Shown: positions 8,256 to 56,388, counted from the stretch's first letter. The stretch is DNA of 64,000 nucleotides from an uncultured Alphaproteobacteria bacterium (GCA_963804235.1 CAWDPP010000057.1:13603-77602); one strand, 5' to 3'. The notes: generated from the letters alone by a model not told the origin. Translations and numbers: made by a program.

Positions 8256-8519
8256 TCATGGCCCATGCCCATCCATGCCCATCGCGCCGTCTGCGCGAGC
8301 GGGCCTTTTTCGGCACAAGTTATTGAAATGACTGTGTAATACGTTCATGGTTCCGTTTCCGCCACGGTCTCGCAATCGCTCTCCCGGTACTTTCAATCAC
8401 TTTTGGCGCGCCGCTGCTTCGGAAATTCGGGGGTTTGTCGCAGTCTCCGCCGCCCTTCGCCGAGCCTCGCCGCGGCCGGCTCCGGCGAACGTATTTGTAT
8501 CCTGTTTGCGTACGACTGT
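8256..8519. other. decayed partial duplicate of the terS-5'-end / orf157 / toxin-leader segment found at 25514-26136
   Basis: The 23-mer catgcccatccatgcccatcgcg at 8264-8286 is identical to 25522-25544. On the minus strand this is ATGGGCATGGATGGGCATG, the first codons of terS; here it reads MGMDGHGP-stop. tgtatcctgtttgcgtacgactgt at 8496-8519 matches 26113-26136 at 21 of 24 positions. Patchy similarity lies in between (gcctttttcggcac vs gccattttccggac; acttttggcgcg vs actttcggcgcg; gtcgcagtctccgc vs gtcagtccgc). About 360 nt are missing relative to the long copy. Confidence 0.7.
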
Positions 8520-9919
8520 CAAGCGCCAACGGGGCGGCGCGCGCGCCACGTCATGGCGCGCTCATAGGCATGGGCGGCGCGCAGCACCGTCGGCTCGTCG
8601 AACGGCCGGGCGATCAACTGCATCGCCAGCGGCAAGACCCTCTTCGCCGTAGCCGGTGCAGATGGAGAGCGCCGGGAATCCGGTGACGTTGCAGGCCGAG
8701 GTGAAATTCGGCTGCTCGACGATGCCCCATTTCGGCACGCGGTCGATGCGCGGCGCCTCGGCCGGCACGGTCGCGGTGAGGAGGATGTCGTGCGCGCGCA
8801 TCGCGCGCGTCATCTCGGCGGTGAGATCGCGGCGGCGGCGCTGCGCCTCGATGTAGTCGGTGGCGCCGATGAGCGCGCCCAGGACCAGCCGGTCGCGCAG
8901 CAGCTCGCCGTATTTCTCCATGCTGTTCCGCATCCATCCGGCGTGGATGCAGAAGCCCTCGGCGAGCAGGATGACGAGGCCGCAGGCGCGCCACTCGACG
9001 AGCGGCGAGAGCTTCACGTCGCTGATCTCCGCGCCCTCGCGCCGGAAGAAATCGATGGCGCCTTCGAGGCCGTTGCGCGTCGCCTCGTTGACCGGGTTCT
9101 CGCGCTCGTGGAAATCGCGCACGACGCCGATGCGCAAGCCCTTCACGCCATCGTTGAGGCGCGCGCGAGAAATCCGGCACGGGGCGCTCTGCGCTCGCCG
9201 GATCCTCGGCGTCGTAGCCGGCGACGGCCTGCAGCAGGATGGCGCAATCCTCGGCCGTCCACGCCATCGGCCCGGCATGGTCGAGCGACCACGCGAGCGG
9301 GATCACGCCGGTGCGCGGCACGAGCCCGTAGGTCGGCTTCAGGCCGGCGAGCCCGCAGAGCGCGGCCGGGAGCCGGATCGAGCCGCCCGTGTCCGAGCCC
9401 ATGCCGCCCAGGATCATGCCGCTCGCCACCGCCGCGCCGGTGCCGCTCGACGAGCCGCCGGTGAAGTGATCCGTGTGCCACGGGTTGCGCGCCGGCGGCC
9501 ACGGCAAATCGAAGGACGGGCCGCCGAACGCGAATTCGTGCGTCGCGAGCTTGCCGAGAAGCACCGTGCCCGCATCGGCGAGGCGCTTGGTGCATGTGGA
9601 GTCGCGTTCCGGCCTGCGGCCCAACAGCTGGCGCGAATGCGCCGTCGTCGGCATGTCCTTGGTGTCGTAGATGTCCTTCAAACCGATCGGGATGCCGTGC
9701 AGCTTTGCTGCGCGGGCCGTCCTTGGGATCGCCGCTCTCGGCCGCGCGCGCCTTTGCCAGCGCGCCCTCGGCGTCGAGATGGAGGAACGCATGGAGCGCG
9801 GGGTCGAGCCGCGCGATGCGGTCGAGGCAGGCGCGCGTGAGCTCCACGGGCGAGAGCGCGCGCTTGGCGATGAGCGAGGCCGCTTCGGCGATCGTCCAGA
9901 ATTCGCCGCCGCCGCTCAC
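8519..9919 (-). CDS. amidase-signature family amidase (GatA/AtzE-like); about three frame breaks
   Basis: GTG at 9919 overlaps the stop of the upstream small ORF (GTGA). It opens SGGGEFWTIAEAASLIAKRALSPVELTRACLDRIARLDP. Signature blocks present: LHGIPIGLKDIYDTKDMPTTAHS, HFTGGSSSGTGAAVASG, GSDTGGSIRLPAALCGLAGLKPTYGLV. The tail is CNVTGFPALSICTGYGEE..LPLAMQLIARPFDEPTVLRAAHAYE. The pieces lie in three frames, with breaks near 9710, 9160 and 8640. Confidence 0.85.
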
Positions 9920-24122: not shown

Positions 24123-24850
24123 TGGCGCTCGCGGCTATCGCGCTCGCGTTCGCGCTGGTGACCTTGTTCATGCCGGCGCTCGGGCCGCTCTTCGCGCGCG
24201 CCTGGCCCGATGTCGTGCCGCCGATCTATGGCTTCGCGTCGTTTCCCAGTCTGCTCCTGTCGCACGCCGAGATCGTGGCGGCGGCGAGCACGGCGGCGAC
24301 CGCGGCGGCGCTCGTCCTCGGCATCTTCGTGACCAGGCCGTGGGGCCGCGATTTCCGCCCGCTGCTGGGCGCGATCGCGACGATCGGCCAGACCTTTCCG
24401 CCGGTCGCGGTGCTCGCCATCGCGGTGCCTGTGCTCGGCTATGGCGACCTGCCGACCTTCGTCGCGCTTGGTCTCTACGGCTTCCTGCCGATCGTCGCCA
24501 ACGTCATCGCCGGGCTCGAGGGCGTGCCGCCGGGCGTGCGCGAAGCGGCGCAGGGCATGGGGCTGTCGTCGTGGCAGATCCTGCGCGACGTGGAGCTGCC
24601 GTTGGCCGCGCCCGTCATCCTCGCCGGCGTGCGCACCTCGGTCGTGATCGCGATCGGCACGGCGACGATCGGCTCGACCGTGGGCGCGGTGACCTTGGGC
24701 ACGCCGATCATCGATGGGCTCGTCGGCGACAAGCTGCCCTATGTGATCGAGGGCGCCGTGGTGGTGGCGCTCTTCGCGATTACCGCCGACATGGTGTTCG
24801 AGCGGCTCGACCGCGCGCTGCGCCGCCACGCCGGCGGGCGGGCGCGCTAG
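24122..24850 (+). CDS. yehW: osmoprotectant ABC transporter permease (YehW-like)
   Basis: ATG at 24122 overlaps the yehX stop (TGATG). It opens MALAAIALAFALVTLFMPALG and includes ...GVPPGVREAAQGMGLSSWQILRDVELPLAAPVILAGVR. The stop is TAG 24848-24850. Confidence 0.85.
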   Translation: MALAAIALAFALVTLFMPALGPLFARAWPDVVPPIYGFASFPSLLLSHAEIVAAASTAATAAALVLGIFVTRPWGRDFRPLLGAIATIGQTFPPVAVLAIAVPVLGYGDLPTFVALGLYGFLPIVANVIAGLEGVPPGVREAAQGMGLSSWQILRDVELPLAAPVILAGVRTSVVIAIGTATIGSTVGAVTLGTPIIDGLVGDKLPYVIEGAVVVALFAITADMVFERLDRALRRHAGGRAR

Positions 24851-25540
24851 CTAGTCCTCGTCGTCCTCCGGTTCCTTGCGCTCGGCCTTCGGGATGTAGC
24901 CGACGCGCTGCGCCAGCCACGAGGCCATCTCGTCGCCGCGGACGACCGCTTCGGCAATGACCTCGCGCGCCGACATGTCGCGATCCTGGCCGATCCCGAG
25001 CCGCTCTTTGATGTTGGCTACGATGGCGAGAAACTCCGCCAGGATCCGTTTTTCGCGTTCGCGCTTGCGCGCCGCTTCCTCGCCGTCGAACCGGTAGCGC
25101 TCGACCACGCCGAGCATCTTGGTCAGCACCTCGAGCGAGCGCGATTTCTCGTAGAGCTTTACCTGGAACCCGCCGCGGTGGCGCACCACCTCGCGCACCG
25201 CGGCGCTGTCGTCGGGCGCGATGCGGCGCGCGGCGCGCAGGCGCGGCCCTTTCTTCGAGAAGGTGACGATCCGGCCCATGTCGGCCAAGGCGATGCGCGC
25301 GTGCTCCTGCGCGATGCGGTCGACCGAGAGGCGCAGCCGTTCCGAGCGTTCGCCCTGCGCCTTGCGCAGCGCCTGGATGACGAGCGGCTCGTGCAGCAGG
25401 CGCCACGCCGTCTTCGCCGCGTTGCGCTCGGAATAGCCCGCGCGCAGCGCCGCCGCCTTGGGCCGCGGGTCGCGCAGATACTCCTCGACGAAGCGTCGCT
25501 GCCGCGGCTTCAGGCCGTCGTCATGCCCATCCATGCCCAT
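24851..25540 (-). CDS. phage terminase small subunit (Terminase_2-type TerS), orphan
   Basis: Intact 229-aa ORF. MGMDGHDDGLKPRQRRFVEEYLRDPRPKAAALRAGYSERNAAKTAWRLLHEPLVIQAL is the characteristic TerS N-terminal HTH. The C-terminus is acidic (PEDDED). No terminase large subunit, portal or capsid gene is present in the window. Its stop (cta 24851-24853) abuts the yehW stop directly (TAGCTA). Confidence 0.85.
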   Translation of the reverse strand: MGMDGHDDGLKPRQRRFVEEYLRDPRPKAAALRAGYSERNAAKTAWRLLHEPLVIQALRKAQGERSERLRLSVDRIAQEHARIALADMGRIVTFSKKGPRLRAARRIAPDDSAAVREVVRHRGGFQVKLYEKSRSLEVLTKMLGVVERYRFDGEEAARKREREKRILAEFLAIVANIKERLGIGQDRDMSAREVIAEAVVRGDEMASWLAQRVGYIPKAERKEPEDDED

Positions 25541-25573
25541 CGCGGGCGCATCCGGTGAGTGCCATTTTCCGGA

Positions 25574-26047
25574 CTATCTCTTTGGGATTGCTGGCGAATC
25601 GCCGGATACCGGCGGATTTTCCAGCGTGTCGTAGCCGGTCCCGGAATCGCCTTTCCGGCTCTCGCGATTACTTTCGGCGCGGGCGAGGGCTGCGCGGACG
25701 CGCTGCTGCGCCGGGGTGCGCTTCGGCCGCACGCGCCGCGCGGCCGTGCGCGGGATCGCGTCGTCCTCGCCCGGATCGCGCGCCACGATCTCGGCCGGCG
25801 CATCGGCCGCGCCGGGATCGTCCGCAGACGCTCCGACCGCCGGATGCGTGGTCATGCGCACGGTGCCGACATAGGTCCCGTCGGCGGCCAGGGTCTCGCA
25901 TTCGAAGGCGCGCCAGCCATGCGCGCCGGCCGCGAGCACGCGCGTCACGACGGCCAAATCCTCGTCGGATAGGCCAAGTCTTATGCCCAATTCGCCGGTC
26001 GCGACTTTCGCCGCGACGACATGGCCCAAGGTTTCGGCAGATGGCAT
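25574..26047 (-). CDS. hypothetical protein (orf157) co-oriented 33 nt upstream of terS
   Basis: 157-aa ORF with a good SD (GAGGAG 6-8 nt before ATG 26047). The N-terminal ~70 aa look globular (MPSAETLGHVVAAKVATGELGIRLGLSDEDLAVVTRVLAAGAHGWRAFECETL...). The C-terminal half is basic and probably disordered (RRVRPKRTPAQQRVRAALARAESNRESRK). I recognise no family. Confidence 0.55.
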   Translation of the reverse strand: MPSAETLGHVVAAKVATGELGIRLGLSDEDLAVVTRVLAAGAHGWRAFECETLAADGTYVGTVRMTTHPAVGASADDPGAADAPAEIVARDPGEDDAIPRTAARRVRPKRTPAQQRVRAALARAESNRESRKGDSGTGYDTLENPPVSGDSPAIPKR

Positions 26048-26391
26048 GCGGAATCTCCTCGTCAGTCCGCACCAGCCCGTGGCGGACGGCGGCGGATTTT
26101 CGTCGCACGCTATGTATCATATTTACGTACGACTGTTGGTCGGTCGCTTATACGGCCGATGCGTTGCGCGCATTGCAGCGAATGGATCGCGGCGTCGCAA
26201 AGACGCACCGGGCGAAGGTGTTGCTGCTCGCGCGCGATCCTCGGGCACCCAACAACGCCGTAAGGAAGCTCGCGGGCGTCGCAGGGTATCGGTTGCGGAT
26301 CGGAGATTGGCGCGCAATCTATCTGCTGCGCGATGAGGTCCTGACGATCGTGGTCGTCCGGATCGGGCATCGAAGCGAGGTTTATCAATGA
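26041..26391 (+). CDS. RelE/ParE-superfamily type II toxin (start uncertain; conserved core begins at Trp codon 26137)
   Basis: WSVAYTADALRALQRMDRGVAKTHRAKVLLLARDPRAPNNAVRKLAGVAGYRLRIGDWRAIYLLRDEVLTIVVVRIGHRSEVYQ is a typical RelE/ParE core. Its stop overlaps the antitoxin ATG (ATGA at 26388-26391). There is no ATG/GTG/TTG at the usual MW position. The nearest in-frame ATG is 26041, which overlaps the orf157 start. ATG 26112 would come into frame if one T of the T3 run 26122-26124 is spurious. Confidence 0.7.
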   Translation: MACGISSSVRTSPWRTAADFRRTLCIIFTYDCWSVAYTADALRALQRMDRGVAKTHRAKVLLLARDPRAPNNAVRKLAGVAGYRLRIGDWRAIYLLRDEVLTIVVVRIGHRSEVYQ

Positions 26392-26759
26392 GCCGGCAAA
26401 TCATCACTCAAGGAGGCAAGCCCGCCTTCGTCGTCATTCCGATCGAGGAATGGCGGCGCATCGAGGCGACACTGGAAGATCGCATCGACCGCGCTTCGTT
26501 GCGCGCATTCCTCGAACATCCGTCGGAGACCTTCCCCAACTCGGTCGCAGCCGCGATGCTCGATGGCGTGCATCCGCTCAAGGCGCTGCGCGAGTATCGC
26601 GGCCTCACCCAGGCGCAACTCGCCGACGGCGCCGGGACGAGCGCGGTCTATGTCTCGCAGATCGAGCGCGGCGAACGGCGCGCCGGGCGCAAACTGCGGG
26701 CAAAAATCGGCAAGTGCCTGCGCGTTCCGCCGCACTTGCTCAATGCGGCCGAGGAGTAG
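26388..26759 (+). CDS. antitoxin with N-terminal Phd/YefM-like segment and C-terminal XRE-type HTH (HigA-like arrangement, toxin gene first)
   Basis: Intact 123-aa ORF. KPAFVVIPIEEWRRIEATLEDRID is the antitoxin beta-strand/helix motif. LREYRGLTQAQLADGAGTSAVYVSQIERGER is the HTH_3 region. Confidence 0.82.
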   Translation: MSRQIITQGGKPAFVVIPIEEWRRIEATLEDRIDRASLRAFLEHPSETFPNSVAAAMLDGVHPLKALREYRGLTQAQLADGAGTSAVYVSQIERGERRAGRKLRAKIGKCLRVPPHLLNAAEE

Positions 26760-26761
26760 GA

Positions 26762-28245
26762 TCAGCCCTTCGCCGCGCGTGCGGCCGATGCGCCGGCGAT
26801 GCGGCCGAAGACGGCGCCCGAGGTGAGGCCGGAGCCGCCGGGATAGTTGAAATAGAAGAGCCCGCCGACCAGTTCGCCCGCGGCATAGAGGCCGGGGATC
26901 GGCCGGAAATCGAGATCGACCACTTCGCCGTCCGTGGTGATGCGCAATCCGCCGAAGGTGAAGGTGAGGCCGCAGGTGACGCCGTAGCCCTCGAACGGCG
27001 GCTCGTCGATCGTGTTGGCCCAGTTCGATTTCGGGATCGCGAGCCCCGTGGTGCCGCGGCCGTCCTTGACGTTGGGATTGAACGGCACGTCGGTGCGCAC
27101 GGCCTTGTTGTATTCGGCGATGGTCTTGACGAACTGCGCCGCATCGACGCCGTCGAGCTTCTGCGCCAGCTCCTCGATCGTCGCGGCGGTCACCTTGGTG
27201 ATGCGGCGGATGTTGTATTCGTCGCGCTGCAGGTGCTTCACCTTCTTGTCCCAGATCTGCCAGGCGAACTGGTTCGGCTGTTCCAGGATGACGCGGCCGT
27301 ACTTCGCATAGGTGTAGTTGCGGAAGTCGGCGCCCTCGTCGACGAAGCGCCGCCCGGTCGCGTTGACCATGATGGCGAACGGATAGGAATGTTTCTGGAA
27401 CTGGTCGCCGACCGCGAGGTCGCCGAACTCGGGCGCGTTCATGTCCCAGCCGACGGCGTGGCAGCCGGACCAGTTGCCGCAAGGGGATGCGCCGATCGCC
27501 AGCGCCATGCGGATGCCGTCGCCGGCGTTGAAGCGCGAGCCGCGCACCTTGGCGAGATCCCAGCCGGGGCCGAGATAGCGCGTGCGCCATTCGGGATTGG
27601 CCTCGAAGCCGCCGCAGGCGAGCACGACCGCGCCGGCCTTGAGCTCGCTGCGTCTGCACCGCCCGAGCGCACGTGCACGCCCGCGACGCGGCCCCGCTCG
27701 ACGACGAGATCGGTCGCGCGCGCGCCATAGCGGATTTCGACGCCGCGGCGCGTCGCGGCGCTGGTCAACTGCTCGACGAGGCCCGGGCCGCCGCCGACCG
27801 ATTCGACCGTGAGCCCGCCCCAGAACTTGAAGCGGCCGTCGATGCGGAACGCCTGGCGGCCATAGATCGGCACGAAGCGCACGCCCTTCTCGCGCATCCA
27901 GTTGGCGGCGGCGAAGCTGCGCGTCACCAGCAGCTCGACCAGATCGGGATTGGCGCGGTACTGCGTCACGCGCGCCATGTCGTCGAAGAACTGGTCCTGC
28001 GTGTAGGTGCCGAAATCGGAGGTGGCGATTTCCTGCGCGGTGAGATCGGGGATGAGCGTCTTGATGTCGTCGACGCCGTTATAGACGATGCGCATGGAGC
28101 CGGCGGTGAAGCGGCTGTTGCCGCCCGCTTCCTCGGGCGGCGCCGCCTCGAGCATCAGCACCTTGGCGCCCGCCTCCTCGGCCGCGAGCGCTGCGCAAAA
28201 GGCGGCGTTGCCCGCGCCGACCACGATCACGTCATGCGATGCCAT
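26762..28245 (-). CDS. FAD-dependent oxidoreductase of the fumarate-reductase/KstD/TcuA flavoprotein family; one frame break
   Basis: ATG at 28245 opens MASHDVIVVGAGNAAFCAALAAEEAGAKVLMLEAAP (dinucleotide fold), then ...GGNSRFTAG. The C-terminal part is GLYAAGELVGGLFYFNYPGGSGLTSGAVFGRIAG. The break is near 27640-27655. Confidence 0.8.
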
Positions 28246-28271
28246 CCCGATCCTCCTCGCGCGCGAGTGGG

Positions 28272-28337
28272 TCTTGCGCAGCGGAGCGAAGCAATCTCGG
28301 GGATTGCTTCGGCGCCGTCGCGGCGCCTCGCAATGAC
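28272..28337. repeat. REP-A element (variant copy)
   Basis: Sequence cttgcgcagcggagcgaagcaatctcggggattgcttcggcgccgtcgcggcgcctcgcaatgac. It shares the inner arms CGAAGCAATC/GGATTGCTTCG and the terminal CTCGCAATGAC with the other copies. Confidence 0.8.
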
Positions 28338-28387
28338 GGCGCGGCTTGGCGTATAACCGGGCGAACAAGTTTTGATGGGAAGAAGCG

Positions 28388-29488
28388 ATGGCCAGACTCG
28401 ATTTCGCCATGTGGGACGCGGTCGGCGGCTATGCCGAGCAATCGGTGCCGATGGCCGACATCTATGACGAGCACATCCGGCTCGCGCGCGAGGTCGAGGA
28501 GCTGGGCTACCACTCCTATTTCGTGATCGAGCACCAGAACTCGCCGATCGGCCGCATCACCGCGCCGACCGTGTATCTGACCGCGGTCGCGCGCGCGACC
28601 ACGCGGCTGCGCGTCGGCGCGATGATGTGGCAGCTGCCGTTCTATCATCCGATCCGGCTCGCGCAGGAAGTGGCGATGCTCGACCATCTGTCGCACGGGC
28701 GGGTCGAGTTCGGCACCGGCATCGGCGTGCACGAGCACGAATTCATCCGCTGGGGCGTCGACTATTACCAGCGCGCGGCGATGGCGGGCGAAGTGCTCGA
28801 CATCGTCAAGCGCGCCTGGACGCAGGACGAGGTGACGTTCGAAGGGAAATATTTCCACTTCGACGAGGCGCTGCCGCAGCCCAAACCGTTCCAGAAACCC
28901 TATCCGCCGATCTGGGCCGCGGTGCACAGCGACGCCTCGGTCGAGTTCGCCGCGCGCAACAATTACCACGTGTCGCAGAACCTCGACATCGACGAGGTGG
29001 TGGCGCAGAAATTCGACCTCTATCGCAAAATCTGGCGCGAGTGCGAACACAAGGGGCCGATGCCGCGCGTCTTCCTGCAGCGCCAGATGCATGTCGCCGA
29101 GACCGACGCCAAGGCGCGCGAGGAGGCCGAGCCCTATCTCCTCGGGCGCTCGGGCGGCGCCGTGCCGGTCGGCGGCGGGCCGATCGGGCAGACGCGCATC
29201 GGCTGGGGCTCGAACGCGCGCGGCATGGGGCGCGACAGTCTGCGCCCCGACGACGCGCGCCGCGGCGAGGCGATCAAGAAGGCCGGCGAGAGCTGGGACT
29301 ACAACATCGAGAACGGCCTCGCCATCGTGGGCTCGCCCGAGACGGTCATCAGGAAGCTCGAAGAGGGCAAGAAGCGGATCGGCTACGACATCTTCTGCGG
29401 CAACCACGAGATCGGCCGCATGCCGAAGGAGCTCGCGCTGAAATCGGTGCGGCTGCTCGGCAAGGAAGTGATCCCGGCGTTCAGGTGA
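28388..29488 (+). CDS. LLM-class (luciferase-like) flavin-dependent oxidoreductase
   Basis: Intact 366-aa ORF MARLDFAMWDAVGG...YHSYFVIEHQNSPIGRITAPTVYLTAVA...LAQEVAMLDHLSHGRVEFGTGIG. Confidence 0.85.
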   Translation: MARLDFAMWDAVGGYAEQSVPMADIYDEHIRLAREVEELGYHSYFVIEHQNSPIGRITAPTVYLTAVARATTRLRVGAMMWQLPFYHPIRLAQEVAMLDHLSHGRVEFGTGIGVHEHEFIRWGVDYYQRAAMAGEVLDIVKRAWTQDEVTFEGKYFHFDEALPQPKPFQKPYPPIWAAVHSDASVEFAARNNYHVSQNLDIDEVVAQKFDLYRKIWRECEHKGPMPRVFLQRQMHVAETDAKAREEAEPYLLGRSGGAVPVGGGPIGQTRIGWGSNARGMGRDSLRPDDARRGEAIKKAGESWDYNIENGLAIVGSPETVIRKLEEGKKRIGYDIFCGNHEIGRMPKELALKSVRLLGKEVIPAFR

Positions 29489-53358: not shown

Positions 53359-53435
53359 TAAAGGTAAGCACGGCTGTCCTATATGGGAAGCCCACCCAAA
53401 GCATTCCTGCCAATCGTGGGACGCATGGAATGGGC

Positions 53436-54639
53436 TCAGGCGAGCGCGCTGCCGTCGCTGTCGCCGACGAGGTGCGGGGCGCCATAGCGGCGCATCACCT
53501 GTTCCGGATCGCGTATCCCGTCGGGCGCGAGCGAGGCGGCGCCGAGCGTGCGCGAGTAATCGACCAGCGCCTGGCCGAACGCGCGGCGCTCGCGCTCGAA
53601 GCGGGCGAGCGCGCCGTCGATGTCGTGCGGCGCGGCCGCCAGGGCCTCGGCGAGCGCGACGGCATCGAGCGCGGCCTTGGTGACGCCGGCCGCGACGTGC
53701 GGGCGCGCGATGAAGGCGGCGTCGCCCAAAAGCGCGACGCGGCCCCACACCATGCGCGGGACTTCGAGATCGGTGACCGCCTGGAGGAGCGGCTGCGCCG
53801 CGCGCGCGACGATGGAGGATACGACGGGCGGCAGCAGCGCCCGTGCCTCGGCGCGCATCGCGGCGATCGCGTCGGCGCGAATGAGCGGCGGCGGGATCGC
53901 GAACTCGTGCGCGCGCCCCGTCTCGTCGGTCATGAGGGCGCCGAGCCGCGCCACGTCGGCCGGGCGATACCAGATGAAGTAATAGCGGCGATGGCCCGGG
54001 CGCACGTCGTCGTCGCGGCCGGGGATCGGCATCGACAGGCTCATCTCGCCGGCGGGGAAGGCGAACACGATGCTGTCGGAGAGCAGCGCGTGCTCGGACG
54101 CCGTGAGCTCGCTCTCCTCGATGACGCCGCGCCAGGCGACGTAGCCGGCATAGCGCGCCGCGATCTCCGGCAGGAACTGGCGCCGCACGGTCGAATGGAC
54201 GCCGTCGGCTCCGACGAGCAAATCTCCCGCCTCGCGCCCGCCATCGGCGAAATGCGCGACGACGCCCGTTCCGTCCTGCTCGACGCGCTCGAGCGCGCGG
54301 CCGGGAAAGACGATTTCGTCCGGCACCGCGGCGCGCAGCGGGCGATAGATCCTCGACCACGCGCCGGTGAGCCACGGCCGCGCGATGCGCAGGACCGGCC
54401 GGCCGGCGCCGATCGAGCCACAGCAGCGCGGCGACCGGAACGCCGGTCGAAGGCGAAATCTCCGCGCCGACGCGGCGCAGCACCTGGAACAGCTCGTTCG
54501 AGAGGCCGAGCCCGGCGCCGCGGCCGGAAAGATCGCCCGCCGTCTTCTCGTAGACGGCGACGTCCCAGCCGATCTCGCGCAGGAGCAGCGCGGCGAAAAG
54601 GCCGCCGACCGAACCGCCGATCACCAAGGCGCGTGGCAT
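53436..54639 (-). CDS. FAD-dependent (class A flavoprotein) monooxygenase; one frame break near 54405
   Basis: ATG at 54639 opens MPRALVIGGSVGGLFAALLLREIGWDVAVYEK (GxGxxG). The next frame gives RPVLRIARPWLTGAWSRIYRPLRAAVPDEIVFPGRALE...LVGADGVHSTVRRQF...VALLGDAAFIARPHVAAGVTKA. Confidence 0.82.
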
Positions 54640-55511: not shown

Positions 55512-56388
55512 CTAACGCTGCTCCTCCTTATAGCGCGCCTCGAGCGCGTCCCAATCGGGCTTGCCGACGAGGTCCTGGCGCTCGGCGAACGGCATGAGGC
55601 GAGCGGCGACGCCGTCGAGCGCGCCGGTCTCGCGCAAATGGCCGAGCACATCCTTCATGCCGAAAAGCGCCGCCTGGAGCGCCACGTTGGCATAGAGCAC
55701 GAGCGCGAAGCCCATCGACTGGAGCGTTTCGCGCGGCAGCACCGGCGTGAGGCCGCCGACCACCAGGTTCGCGACCTGCGGCACGGCGAGCGCTGCCGGG
55801 ATGCGCGCCATGTCGGCCTCGCTCCGCGGCGCCTCGACGAAGGTGAGATCGGCGCCCGCCTCGATATAAAGCTGCGGCGCGGGCGAGCGCGTCCTCGATG
55901 CCGTTGGGCGCGATCGCGTCGGTGCGGGCGATGACGAGGAAATCCGGGTCGCGCCGCGCATCGACCGCGGCGCGCACCTTCGCCGCCATCTCGCCGGCGG
56001 GGATCACCGTCTTGCCGGCGAAATGGCCGCAGCGCTTCGGGAACTCCTGGTCCTCGAGTTGCACGGCGTTGGCGCCGGCGCGCTCCAGCACGCGGATCGT
56101 GCGCGCGACGTTCAACGCATTGCCGAAGCCCGTGTCGGCATCGACGATGAGCGGCAGCGCGACCGCCTCGCGCATGGCGGCGACGTTGGCGGCAAGCTCG
56201 GTGAGCGTGACGAGGCCGATATCGGGCACGCCGAGATAGGCATTGGCGAGGCCGGCGCCGGTGACATAGACGGCGGGGAAACCCAGGCGCTCGATGAGGC
56301 GCGCGGCGAGCGCGTCGGCCGCGCCCGGAACGATCGCACCGGCGCCCTTGTGGAGCGCGCGGCGCAGTGCTTTGTTGAGATCGCTCAT
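55512..56388 (-). CDS. isocitrate lyase / PEP mutase superfamily enzyme (methylisocitrate-lyase / carboxyvinyl-carboxyphosphonate phosphorylmutase-like); one frame break near 55877
   Basis: ATG at 56388 opens MSDLNKALRRALHKGAGAIVPGAADALAARLIERLGFPAVYVTGAG, then ...LIVDADTGFGNALNVARTIRVLERAGANAVQLEDQEFPKRCGH...VIARTDA. The next frame gives QLYIEAGADLTFVEAPRSEADM. Confidence 0.82.

What the first reader, a model, noticed from the sequence alone, without database searches (positions are those of the whole stretch)
24851..26759. Orphan terminase small subunit + unknown ORF + toxin-first TA pair packed into a 1.9-kb islet with essentially no flanking intergenic DNA
A Terminase_2-type TerS (24851-25540) is preceded on the same strand by an unassignable 157-aa ORF. 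That ORF has a good SD, a globular N-terminal half and a basic, probably disordered C-terminal half. A RelE/ParE toxin and a Phd-like+XRE-HTH antitoxin are transcribed divergently.

No terminase large subunit, portal, capsid, integrase or tRNA is present anywhere in the 64 kb. The islet is jammed between convergent chromosomal genes. The terS stop abuts the yehW stop directly (TAGCTA, 24848-24853). The antitoxin stop lies 2 nt from the stop of the FAD oxidoreductase gene (26759/26762).

Stand-alone TerS genes are the hallmark used by phage satellites (PICI-type elements) to redirect helper-phage packaging. TA pairs commonly stabilise such elements or act in abortive infection. This could be a minimal or decayed satellite-like or defence-like module. 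The orf157-terS pair may be a functional unit of unknown role.
Basis: partly seen in the sequence, partly recalled or inferred. Interest (0 to 1): 0.62.

Follow-up and report, generated by a model that had tools for sequence, protein, structure and literature searches.

The report
Stand-alone small-terminase two-gene cassette
A phage-type DNA-recognition gene (small terminase) and an unknown partner gene form a pair with its own promoter that sits alone at many chromosomal sites in one genus of uncultured soil bacteria. The pair shares its ends with a family of short dispersed repeats, and the toxin-antitoxin pair next to it is a later, unrelated insertion whose toxin has lost its start codon.

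Summary
All four ORFs are present at the stated coordinates, and the gene stops abut as described. The "islet" is two unrelated insertions.

**1. orf157-terS cassette**
- It is a conserved bicistronic cassette with its own sigma-70-like promoter and a GTACG palindrome.
- It occurs only in one genus of uncultured soil Stellaceae, in at least 7 different chromosomal contexts.
- It never has TerL, portal or integrase next to it.
- Sister species have an empty site, 0-40 nt between the same two flanking genes.
- orf157 is an ORFan under purifying selection. TerS is SPP1/SF6-type and less constrained.

**2. ParE/RelE-Phd/XRE block (26137-26766)**
- It is absent from the sister species that carries the cassette at the same site.
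- Its insertion split the cassette's -35 box and begins at toxin codon 2, so the toxin has no native start codon, SD or promoter.

**Unexpected repeat family**
- The cassette's promoter, the 3' tail of orf157 and the first six terS codons are also the two ends of a 210-350-bp dispersed repeat.
- This genome has at least 26 copies and the sister species 16. The repeat is nearly absent in the other genomes searched.

It is not a satellite. The function is unproven. My best guess is a packaging-specifier or packaging-interference pair acting with the resident tandem-terS prophage-like elements.

The parts
24851..25540 (-). terS: a 229-aa SPP1/SF6-type small terminase homologue with a lineage-specific C-terminal extension of about 80 aa
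   Evidence: It matches Pfam PF03592 at E=2e-23 over residues 11-149. A profile of the cassette TerS proteins hits the SF6 TerS structure 3ZQQ at E=4.6e-15. Its C-terminal motif AE(G/A)VxRGD is conserved among cassette copies and is absent from the prophage TerS proteins.
25574..26047 (-). orf157: a lineage-restricted ORFan with a conserved 70-aa N-domain, a variable linker, a conserved basic motif RRARPKRTPAQxRV and a poorly constrained tail
   Evidence: Only 15 homologues exist among 5.8 billion proteins. A profile search of 1.84 billion representatives finds only its own family. dN/dS is 0.17-0.53, and codon periodicity is clear in the N-domain and the basic motif. Secondary-structure order is helix-helix-helix-strand-strand at low confidence.
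25523..25690 (-). Segment shared with the dispersed repeat family: the last ~40 codons of orf157 (up to ~45 by alignment), the intergenic spacer and terS codons 1-6. It ends in the direct repeat ATGGGCAT-GG-ATGGGCAT.
   Evidence: It aligns over its whole length with 25 other copies of the repeat in this genome. BLAST gives up to 83% identity over 88 nt plus 23/23 identity at the end.
26048..26136 (-). Cassette leader and promoter/operator. The -10 TACATA lies at 26111-26116. The palindrome arms lie at 26102-26109 and 26126-26133. Only TGT (26134-26136) of the -35 hexamer remains.
   Evidence: The region is homologous to G008 up to position 26136. Intact versions TTGAC(A/G)-17 nt-TAnAnn with GTACG-type inverted repeats stand in front of orf157 homologues in G008, L016, L017, L055 and L056. 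This is one of about 7 AT-rich spots in the 64 kb, and TACGTA is unique in the window.
26137..26766 (.). Later insertion block carrying the TA genes. It replaces about 80 nt that G008 has here (REP-like hairpins and the -35 box).
   Evidence: G000-G008 homology stops at 26136 and resumes at 26767. The repeat copy at 8519 and G008 both read GAC(T/C)GTCAAG where the window reads GACTGT|TGGTCG.
26137..26391 (+). ParE/RelE toxin frame that begins at codon 2 and lacks its native start codon, SD and promoter
   Evidence: It matches PF05016, TIGR02385 and PHROG 1213. The intact homologue in G084 starts ATG TGG TCC and has its own AT-rich promoter.
26388..26759 (+). Antitoxin-type gene with a Phd/YefM-like N-terminus and an XRE HTH. 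It is intact, has a GAGG SD, and its ATGA overlaps the toxin stop.
   Evidence: It matches Pfam HTH_3/HTH_31 and PhdYeFM, and PHROG 7241 at 9e-29. Homologues of 76-78% identity occur only in another genus of the family. G138 keeps the antitoxin with only the last ~10 toxin codons.
8262..8522 (-). Short copy of the dispersed repeat: promoter TTGACA-GTCGTACG..., leader, conserved module and the ATGGGCATGGATGGGCAT end, with no orf157 core and no terS
   Evidence: It is 23/23 identical to 25522-25544 and 21/24 identical to 26113-26136. It is one of 19 complete copies and at least 26 module copies in the genome. An orthologous copy is present in G008.

Best explanation
The 1.9-kb block is two independent accessory insertions in a variable gap between two convergent chromosomal genes.

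**(A) The orf157-terS cassette.**
- It is a self-contained operon of phage origin.
- Its parts, in order, are: a sigma-70-like promoter overlapped by a GTACG-type palindrome, a leader, orf157, a short spacer and terS.
- orf157 has a small N-domain with a winged-helix-like order of secondary-structure elements, plus a basic arm.
- terS has an HTH and an oligomerisation core of the SPP1/SF6 type, plus a cassette-specific C-terminal tail.

I infer the following mechanism:
- Both proteins bind DNA.
- One of them represses the operon through the palindrome.
- Together they act as a packaging-specifier or packaging-interference pair on the terminase of the prophage-like elements resident in this genus.
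- This would resemble the SaPI 'TerS + Ppi' two-shot strategy, but without the rest of a satellite.

The cassette shares both of its ends with a family of short dispersed repeats that multiplied in this lineage. The proteins may also act on those sites.

**(B) The ParE/RelE-Phd/XRE fragment.**
- It landed later, in this lineage only, inside the cassette's -35 box.
- It starts at toxin codon 2, so the toxin is most likely silent.
- Only the antitoxin-type repressor is likely to be made.

**Shown:** the anatomy, distribution, insertion order, selection on the genes and the repeat family.
**Inferred:** DNA binding, autoregulation and any link to packaging.
For: **The cassette is one unit**
- An orf157 homologue lies directly upstream of a Terminase_2 gene in every case found:
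  - G008: same site, 91-93% aa identity, no TA.
  - G007/L018, G004, L016, L017, L055 and L056: all different flanks, no phage genes nearby.
- The family exists in only 4 of 185,579 species genomes, all in one genus.

**The block is accessory**
- The permease/FAD-oxidoreductase gap is 0-40 nt in G001, G002, G006 and G007.
- It holds other genes in G004, G005 and G009.

**Selection**
- orf157 dN/dS is 0.17-0.53, with p<0.006 in all 21 pairs.
- Codon-position differences are 0.19/0.13/0.45 in the N-domain.
- terS dN/dS is 0.46 in the HTH and 0.65 in the core.

**Regulatory anatomy**
- TTGACA-17 nt-TAnAnn is conserved upstream of orf157 homologues.
- The inverted repeats change between cassettes but keep a TACG core.

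**TerS type**
- The cassette TerS profile hits the solved SF6 TerS at 4.6e-15.

**Possible helper**
- A prophage-like element with tandem terS1-terS2, TerL and portal lies on contig C56.
- Portal homologues occur in 7 of 10 genus genomes and Terminase_2 genes in 8 of 10, mostly as tandem pairs.
- Its terminase-operon promoter shares the -35 hexamer, the 17-nt spacer, the TG-extended -10, GTACG motifs and a GAAAATCCGCC leader with the cassette.

**Precedent**
- Two-protein terminase manipulation is known: SaPI TerS+Ppi and Rpp (PMC6739421), PLE Gpi/GpsA/GpsB (PMC11417361), and TerI, which binds TerS (bioRxiv 10.1101/2025.02.27.640495).

**The TA block is later and disabled**

**Repeat family**
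Against: - There is no experimental or transcript evidence.
- terS is weakly constrained overall (dN/dS 0.41-0.79). Its C-terminal third, where TerS usually contacts TerL, evolves almost neutrally at 0.94.
- One copy (L016) has a split terS.
- In this genome the -35 box is destroyed by the TA insertion, so the cassette may be poorly expressed.
- The cassette TerS is no closer to the resident prophage TerS (32-36% identity) than to Bacillus phage TerS (35%).
- G007 has the cassette but no homologue of that portal, although G007 is only 69% complete.
- The orf157 fold is low-confidence (pLDDT 57-58) and Foldseek finds nothing significant.
- The strict promoter scan did not call the promoter.
- The genomes are long-read MAGs with likely indel errors.
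Confidence: 0.4

Rival explanations
1. TA-like or regulatory module with no role in packaging. On this reading orf157 is an antitoxin-like protein or regulator: first in the operon, with an N-terminal DNA-binding domain and a disordered C-terminal half. The TerS homologue is a co-opted HTH effector or regulator. The pair would behave genetically like a type II addiction or abortive-infection module.
For: - The operon is bicistronic with a palindromic operator over its promoter.
- Its distribution is patchy within one genus, with tight junctions at many unrelated sites.
- It is repeatedly found next to TA genes:
  - the ParE/Phd-XRE block in the window;
  - a lone HigA-like HTH gene directly upstream in G007/L018;
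  - MNT/HepT next to a lone terS in L057.
- A higB promoter elsewhere in the genome has a similar TTGACA + ACGTAC operator.
Against: - Neither protein matches any toxin, antitoxin or defence family in Pfam, NCBIfam or PADLOC.
- TerS keeps the SPP1-type HTH and oligomerisation core.
- TA genes are common in these genomes, so the adjacency may only reflect shared permissive sites.
Confidence: 0.2
2. Decaying prophage remnant. The pair is the surviving 5' end of a phage packaging operon, it has no present function, and its frames stay open mainly because stop codons are rare in 70% G+C DNA.
For: - The terS C-terminal third has dN/dS of about 0.94, and the whole gene 0.41-0.79.
- terS is frameshifted in L016.
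- The -35 box is lost in the window.
- The promoter and leader resemble those of the terminase operons of resident prophage-like elements.
Against: - The same two genes, with the same boundaries, occur in at least 7 unrelated contexts. No TerL fragment is found downstream in any of them.
- orf157 shows clear purifying selection and codon periodicity at dS of about 0.8-1.5.
- The promoter/operator is conserved.
- orf157 is never found inside a prophage.
Confidence: 0.15
3. Autonomous member of a new kind of mobile or site-multiplying element. On this reading the cassette encodes the trans-acting proteins, and the 210-350-bp repeats are its non-autonomous derivatives. The two repeat ends, a GTACG palindrome and an ATGGGCAT direct repeat, would be the protein binding sites, for example dispersed pac-like sites.
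For: - The short repeats equal the cassette minus the orf157 core (~355 nt) and minus terS, with sharply shared ends.
- The repeats are abundant only in G000 (at least 26 by motif scan, at least 20 by BLAST) and G008 (16). These are the two genomes carrying this cassette type.
- G001 has 2 partial copies, and 38 other genomes have none.
- The tails of all orf157 homologues align with the repeat module, so the module looks ancestral to the cassette.
- The cassette itself sits at many different sites.
Against: - Neither protein has a recognisable recombinase or nuclease domain.
- The repeats have no terminal inverted repeats and no target-site duplications.
- The copies are old, with a mean identity of 0.60.
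- G007 and G004 have cassettes but no repeat expansion.
- terS lies outside the 3' end of the repeat.
- The association rests on only two genomes.
Confidence: 0.12
4. One reading: a minimal or decayed PICI-type satellite stabilised by its own TA pair.
For: A stand-alone terS is a hallmark of pac-type SaPIs (PMC6739421). The block is accessory.
Against: - There is no integrase on the 232-kb contig.
- There are no att-like repeats at the insertion and no replication or regulatory genes.
- The TA block is absent from the sister species that carries the cassette. It also disrupts the cassette promoter.
Confidence: 0.05

Closest known systems
SaPI (pac-type PICI) TerS_S plus Ppi, the 'two-shot' packaging strategy (PMC6739421, which cites Ubeda 2007 and Ram 2012)
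   Same: A TerS homologue encoded outside a phage is paired with a small unrelated protein. In SaPIs this pair redirects the helper TerL and blocks the phage TerS.
   Different: The cassette here has no integrase, repressor, replication or capsid-remodelling genes and no att sites. orf157 has no similarity to Ppi. No helper relation has been shown.
PLE packaging genes Gpi, GpsA and GpsB (PMC11417361), and PICI Rpp (PMC6739421)
   Same: Small element-encoded proteins act on the terminase and on pac/cos recognition. GpsA and GpsB form a two-protein 'specifier'.
   Different: Those genes belong to 7-18-kb excising satellites. They share no sequence similarity with orf157 or this terS, and none of them is a Terminase_2 protein.
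TERi system of Listeria prophages, in which TerI binds TerS (bioRxiv 10.1101/2025.02.27.640495)
   Same: It is a defence that acts through the small terminase.
   Different: TerI is prophage-encoded and has two anti-TerI partners. It is an inhibitor of TerS, not a TerS homologue.
SPP1/SF6 G1P small terminase (PDB 3ZQQ)
   Same: It has the same HTH and oligomerisation core (profile E=4.6e-15). In SPP1 the pac site overlaps the start of the terS gene; this point is from my own knowledge and was not checked here.
   Different: The cassette terS has no adjacent terL and carries an extra conserved C-terminal segment. It sits in the chromosome without any other phage gene.
Type II toxin-antitoxin cassettes, compared for genetic behaviour only
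   Same: They are two small co-transcribed genes with a palindromic operator over the promoter. Their distribution is patchy and they insert into intergenic hot spots.
   Different: No toxin or antitoxin domain is present, and toxicity has not been tested.
MITE-like non-autonomous repeats derived from a longer parent element
   Same: Short multi-copy derivatives share both ends with a longer, protein-coding version.
   Different: There are no terminal inverted repeats, no target duplications and no transposase. The repeat starts exactly at a -35 box and ends six codons into terS.

Membership tests
Small terminase, Pfam Terminase_2 (SPP1/SF6 type) | Sequence match above the curated threshold, covering the HTH and the oligomerisation core | tested here: met
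   PF03592 scores 84 bits against a cut-off of 26.1, over residues 11-149. The cassette TerS profile hits 3ZQQ at E=4.6e-15.
Small terminase, Pfam Terminase_2 (SPP1/SF6 type) | Encoded next to a large terminase within a head-packaging gene cluster | tested here: not met
   The flanks are an ABC permease and a FAD oxidoreductase, and sister species have an empty site. None of the 7 contexts has a TerL or portal.
Small terminase, Pfam Terminase_2 (SPP1/SF6 type) | Binds a pac site and recruits TerL | not testable with these tools
   This needs EMSA, two-hybrid and packaging assays.
PICI/SaPI-type phage satellite | Integrase and flanking att repeats | tested here: not met
   Contig C57 has no PF00589 match. 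Comparison with empty sites shows no repeats at the junctions.
PICI/SaPI-type phage satellite | Replication module (primase/rep and ori) and a master repressor | tested here: not met
   Only two genes lie between conserved chromosomal genes.
PICI/SaPI-type phage satellite | Its own terS, with or without a packaging-interference gene | tested here: inconclusive
   terS is present. The partner orf157 has no similarity to any known family.
Type II TA, RelE/ParE toxin with Phd/XRE antitoxin | Toxin domain and antitoxin domains present, with overlapping stop and start codons | tested here: met
   The toxin matches PF05016 and TIGR02385, and the antitoxin matches PhdYeFM plus HTH_3. The ATGA overlap lies at 26388-26391.
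Type II TA, RelE/ParE toxin with Phd/XRE antitoxin | Toxin gene with a start codon, an SD and the operon's own promoter | tested here: not met
   The junction at 26136/26137 removes the ATG and everything upstream of it. The intact homologue in G084 shows what is missing.
RcGTA-type gene transfer agent | terS as the first gene of a conserved head-tail cluster | tested here: not met
   No structural genes are adjacent. The cassette is present in only 4 of 10 genus genomes.
MITE / IS-derived repeat (tested for the short dispersed copies) | Terminal inverted repeats and target-site duplications | tested here: not met
   The 19 complete copies begin at CTTGAC and end at GGGCAT. Their flanks share only chance matches.
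Structured small-RNA gene family (tested for the short dispersed copies) | Conserved secondary structure with covariation, or an Rfam match | tested here: not met
   RNAalifold gives about 0 kcal/mol on both strands for 26 copies. Rfam finds no match at E<=1.

The most novel reading that the evidence does not exclude
orf157-terS is the protein-coding parent of a previously undescribed repeat family. On this reading a small-terminase-based cassette supplies two DNA-binding proteins. These recognise the two ends of 210-350-bp promoter-bearing repeats scattered over the chromosome. The result would be either a new, recombinase-less kind of mobile element or a set of dispersed pac-like sites. Through such sites resident phage-like particles would package, and so transfer, host DNA.
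Probability: 0.13. Interest if true: 0.85.

Novelty: new variant of a known kind. Interest (0 to 1): 0.55.

Why it matters
Orphan small terminases are normally read as a sign of a satellite or as prophage debris. Here a terS and an ORFan form a minimal unit with its own promoter. The unit persists at many chromosomal sites without any other mobility or phage gene, and it shares its ends with a multi-copy repeat.

If the pair acts on packaging, it would be the smallest known terminase-manipulating module. It would also be a cheap way for a cell, or for the cassette itself, to interfere with or exploit resident phage-like particles.

If the pair acts on the repeats, it would point to a new way of spreading DNA sites.

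The result also gives a cautionary example for annotation. What looks like a 'toxin-first TA pair' is here an insertion fragment with a start-less toxin.

Tried and rejected
- **Remote homology for orf157.** Pfam, PHROGs, NCBIfam and PADLOC gave nothing. A profile search of 1.84 billion proteins found only its own family and frameshifted fragments.
- **orf157 against TerS.** hhalign gave a probability of 0.1%, so orf157 is not a diverged TerS.
- **Structure of orf157.** Two AlphaFold2 runs, full length and N-domain, gave pLDDT 57-58. Foldseek against PDB found nothing at E<0.3. The winged-helix idea therefore rests only on the order of secondary-structure elements.
- **Strict sigma-70 and terminator scan.** It called nothing at the cassette, so the promoter is my own reading of conserved hexamers.
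- **Operator elsewhere in the genome.** The exact 32-mer is unique. Looser inverted-repeat hits were mostly GC-rich noise.
- **REP-like palindrome GTCGACCGCATGCGGTCGAC next to the cassette in G008.** It is a generic repeat with 11 copies, not a cassette end.
- **'Decayed second cassette' at 8256-8519.** Rejected as a one-off relic, because it is one of at least 26 repeat copies.
- **Repeat as a structured RNA.** No consensus fold and no Rfam hit.
- **Repeat as a MITE.** No terminal inverted repeats and no target-site duplications.
- **Cassette co-occurring with the prophage portal.** No clear association across the genus.
- **Metagenome pattern scan for the repeat.** My gap range was too narrow, and the scan found only one extra copy, L076.
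- **Rfam over the islet and over the whole window.** Nothing found.
Full report
**1. What is there**

The window is G000:C57:13603-77602. G000 is a 5.1-Mb, 62-contig MAG that is 63% complete. Its relatives are named 'Stellaceae bacterium' and 'MFD... uncultured Alphaproteobacteria'.

The four frames sit at the stated coordinates.
- terS, 24851-25540(-): Pfam Terminase_2 at E=2e-23, PHROG 51.
- orf157, 25574-26047(-): GAGGAG lies 8 nt upstream of its ATG, and no family matches it.
- A ParE/RelE frame ending at 26391.
- A Phd-N-terminus + XRE-HTH gene at 26388-26759.

The stops abut exactly as described. Contig C57 has no tyrosine integrase. Rfam finds no tRNA in the window, and two 98-nt ARAGORN calls at 53425 and 56034 are unsupported.

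**2. The TA block is a separate, later insertion, and its toxin is beheaded**

G008 is a sister species whose flanking proteins are 82-95% identical. It carries orf157-terS at the same site, between the same ABC permease and FAD oxidoreductase, but has no TA genes.
- DNA homology between G000 and G008 runs from 24786 to 26136 and resumes at 26767.
- The 630-bp TA block replaces about 80 nt of G008 sequence. That stretch holds REP-like hairpins and the cassette's -35 box.
- G008, and a repeat copy at 8519 in the window, read GAC(C/T)GTCAAG at this point. The window reads GACTGT|TGGTCG.

The junction therefore falls inside the -35 hexamer (TTGACA on the cassette strand), and the inserted DNA begins with toxin codon 2.
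- An intact homologue in another genus (G084; toxin 59% and antitoxin 76% identical) starts ATG TGG TCC GTC (MWSVTY...) behind its own AT-rich promoter.
- The window has TGT TGG TCG GTC.
- The next in-frame canonical starts are TTG at 26164 and ATG at 26182. These would remove the first strand of the toxin fold.
- An upstream ATG at 26035 would add 34 residues that run antisense to the orf157 start.
- G138 keeps the antitoxin with only the last ~10 toxin codons, so toxin loss recurs in this TA family.
- No other genome of the genus has this antitoxin.

**3. The site is a variable spot**

Between the permease stop and the FAD-oxidoreductase stop the genus shows four states:
- 0-40 nt in G001, G002, G006 and G007;
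- a membrane protein and a metallophosphoesterase in G004 and G009;
- a SAM methyltransferase in G005;
- the cassette in G000 and G008.

L056 is a metagenome contig with the same flanks (FAD oxidoreductase 92% identical). It has an extra Asp/Arg-hydroxylase gene and then a cassette that is only 71% (orf157) and 58% (terS) identical. The cassette is thus far more diverged than its flanks.

**4. orf157-terS is a conserved two-gene cassette**

- The orf157 family has 15 members among 5.8 billion proteins.
- A profile search of 1.84 billion representatives finds 5 clusters, all from its own family.
- It occurs in 4 of 185,579 species genomes, all in one genus.
- Every homologue with enough flanking DNA is followed within 8-33 nt by a Terminase_2 gene.

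The neighbours differ on both sides between contexts:

| Context | Upstream neighbour | Downstream neighbour |
|---|---|---|
| G000, G008 | FAD oxidoreductase | ABC permease |
| L056 | Asp/Arg hydroxylase | contig end (not seen) |
| G007, L018 | HigA-like HTH | amidohydrolase |
| G004 | contig end (not seen) | periplasmic binding protein |
| L016 | unannotated ORF (a TANGO2-like gene lies beyond it) | purB (adenylosuccinate lyase) |
| L017 | CMD-like | hydrolase |
| L055 | SGL | aspS |

No TerL, portal or integrase is nearby in any context. A more distant lone terS (43% identity) sits next to MNT/HepT TA genes in L057.

**5. Selection**

- orf157: dN/dS is 0.17-0.53 in all 21 pairs, each with p<0.006 against neutrality.
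- Mean differences at codon positions 1/2/3 are 0.19/0.13/0.45 in the N-domain and 0.16/0.19/0.48 in the basic motif. The linker and the tail show little periodicity.
- terS: dN/dS is 0.41-0.79 overall. By region it is 0.46 in the HTH, 0.65 in the core and 0.94 in the C-terminal third.
- Flanking genes score 0.11-0.26.
- Nei-Gojobori values are probably inflated at 90% GC3.
- orf157 is the better-conserved partner.

**6. The proteins**

*TerS*
- The cassette TerS profile hits the solved SF6 TerS (3ZQQ) at 4.6e-15 across the HTH and the core.
- Phage TerS proteins match only residues 10-147, at 30-35% identity.
- Cassette copies share an extra C-terminal segment with the motif AE(G/A)VxRGD.

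*orf157*
- It has an almost invariant 70-aa N-domain (GWRAFECETLDADGTYVGTVRLTTHPA).
- It also has an invariant basic motif RRARPKRTPAQxRV.
- AlphaFold2 gives helix-helix-helix-strand-strand, then disorder, then a helix, at pLDDT 57-58. Foldseek finds nothing.
- DNA binding by a winged-helix-like domain plus a basic arm is therefore an inference.
- orf157 is not a diverged TerS.

**7. Promoter and operator**

Upstream of orf157 homologues in G008, L016, L017, L055 and L056 stands TTGAC(A/G)/TTGAAA, a 17-nt spacer and TAnAnn. Inverted repeats span the spacer and the -10 box. They differ between cassettes but keep a TACG/ACGC core:
- GTCGTACG/CGTGCGAC
- TGTACGC/GCGTACA
- GTACGTAAATA/TATATACGTAC
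- ATAACGC/GCGTTAT

In the window this is one of about 7 AT-rich spots in the 64 kb. The strict consensus scan does not call it. G007/L018 lack this promoter and instead have a lone HigA-like HTH gene upstream.

**8. A dispersed repeat shares the cassette's ends**

I confirmed the matches: 23/23 to 25522-25544 and 21/24 to 26113-26136. It turned out to be one member of a family.
- At least 26 copies of a ~170-nt module exist in G000.
- 19 copies are complete (210-353 bp, mode ~258 bp). Each has three parts:
  - the promoter CTTGAC(A/T)..TGTACG(C/T)AAAT(A/G)TGATA;
  - a variable stretch of 67-212 nt;
  - the module, which ends CGCGATGGGCATGGATGGGCAT.
- In the cassette, that module forms the last ~40 codons of orf157 (up to ~45 by alignment), the spacer and terS codons 1-6.
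- A short copy therefore equals the cassette minus ~355 nt of orf157 core and minus terS.
- The copies are old, with a mean identity of 0.60.
- They have no terminal inverted repeats, no target duplications, no consensus RNA fold and no Rfam match.
- By BLAST the module has at least 20 copies in G000, 16 in G008 and 2 partial copies in G001. It has none in the other 7 genus genomes or in 31 genomes of other genera.
- G007 and G004 have no multi-copy version of their own module.
- One further copy lies on a soil metagenome contig.
- The tails of all orf157 homologues align with the module, so the short copies look derived from the cassette.
- How they multiplied is unexplained.

**9. Resident phage-like elements**

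- Contig C56 carries a prophage-like element at about 35.7-58.9 kb. It has a repressor, tandem terS1-terS2, a TerL read in three frames, a portal, a protease, a capsid gene and MazEF.
- It is collinear with G001 and G008 at 86-89% nt identity.
- Portal homologues occur in 7 of 10 genus genomes, and Terminase_2 genes in 8 of 10, mostly as tandem pairs.
- The promoter of its terminase operon resembles the cassette's. Both have TTGACA, a 17-nt spacer, a TG-extended -10, GTACG motifs and a GAAAATCCGCC leader. In the prophage-like element, however, the GTACG motifs are direct repeats upstream of the -35 box.
- The cassette TerS is only 32-36% identical to these TerS proteins.

**10. Interpretation**

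The anatomy, the order of insertions, the selection on the genes and the repeat family are shown. Function is inferred.

I favour, at about 0.4, a DNA-binding pair that represses its own promoter and acts on the packaging machinery of the resident phage-like elements. It would work as a specifier or as an interference system, in the manner of SaPI TerS+Ppi (PMC6739421) or PLE GpsA/GpsB (PMC11417361).

The rivals are:
- a TA-like or regulatory module (0.2);
- an inert remnant (0.15);
- the parent of a new repeat or mobile system (0.12);
- a true decayed satellite with its own TA pair (0.05).

**11. Caveats**

- These genomes are uncultured long-read MAGs with probable indel errors. Examples are the FAD oxidoreductase, which is +2 nt relative to G008, and the split TerL.
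- No reads or transcripts could be examined.
- The structure models are weak.
- The link between repeats and cassette rests on two genomes.

Noticed in passing
window 27439-27660: The FAD-dependent oxidoreductase next to the islet is split into two overlapping frames, 26762-27625 and 27439-28410. Relative to the intact G008 gene it has two extra single bases within 12 nt. This is either a real pseudogene or a long-read assembly error.
   Followed up: partly
G000 contig C56, about 35.7-58.9 kb (L007, L064): A prophage-like element carries two tandem terS genes, a TerL read in three frames, a portal, a protease, a capsid gene and a MazEF pair. It is collinear with G001 and G008 at 86-89% nt identity, and portal homologues occur in 7 of 10 genus genomes. 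That is about the divergence of core genes, so it may be a long-resident or domesticated (GTA-like) element.
   Followed up: partly
L065-L072, L062, L063; G000 C56 41290-41445: The promoters in front of the tandem terS genes across the genus are strongly conserved: GTACG(C/T), a T-tract, TTGACA, a 17-nt spacer and a TG-extended -10. They are followed by a leader (CATCCTGAAAAATCCGCC) and, in several genomes, a hairpin plus T-run. This looks like a late operon controlled by antitermination.
   Followed up: no
G000 contig C51, 29473-33400 (L006): A second orphan terS (183 aa) plus a terS fragment lies next to a 3-kb low-GC island (49-58% GC). The island encodes a ParA-like ATPase and two unknown proteins, and no phage structural genes are nearby.
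   Followed up: no
L074 7600-8560 (G001:C9): At the GNAT/amidase site where G000 and G008 carry a short repeat copy, G001 has a ~230-aa ORF (MTTEAQIEANRRNSQHSTGPRTEAGKE...). It sits behind the same promoter type: TTGATT, then TGTACGTA, then TATAAT, with flanking CGTACG motifs.
   Followed up: no
G000 contig C49, about 798,640-798,800: A higB-like gene (MIQSFRDRRTALFY...) has a promoter TTGACA followed by GCACGAC...TACGTAC. This resembles the cassette operator, so XRE/HigA-type repressors may recognise this class of site.
   Followed up: no
L013 10283-10362; G000 C51 30410; nine other places: A composite REP-like repeat consists of the perfect palindrome GTCGACCGCATGCGGTCGAC flanked by a GGGGAGAGGG-type hairpin. 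It occurs 11 times in the genome, in intergenic gaps.
   Followed up: partly
window 53425-53522 and 56034-56131: ARAGORN reports two unusually long (98-nt) tRNAs, Asp-GTC and Ala-GGC. Rfam does not support them at gathering score, so they are probably false positives.
   Followed up: partly
L014 10493-10774; L018 9553-9834: In G007/L018 a lone HigA-type HTH gene with no higB stands directly upstream of orf157 on the same strand. There the cassette lacks the TTGACA/GTACG promoter, so this may be a three-gene variant of the cassette.
   Followed up: no
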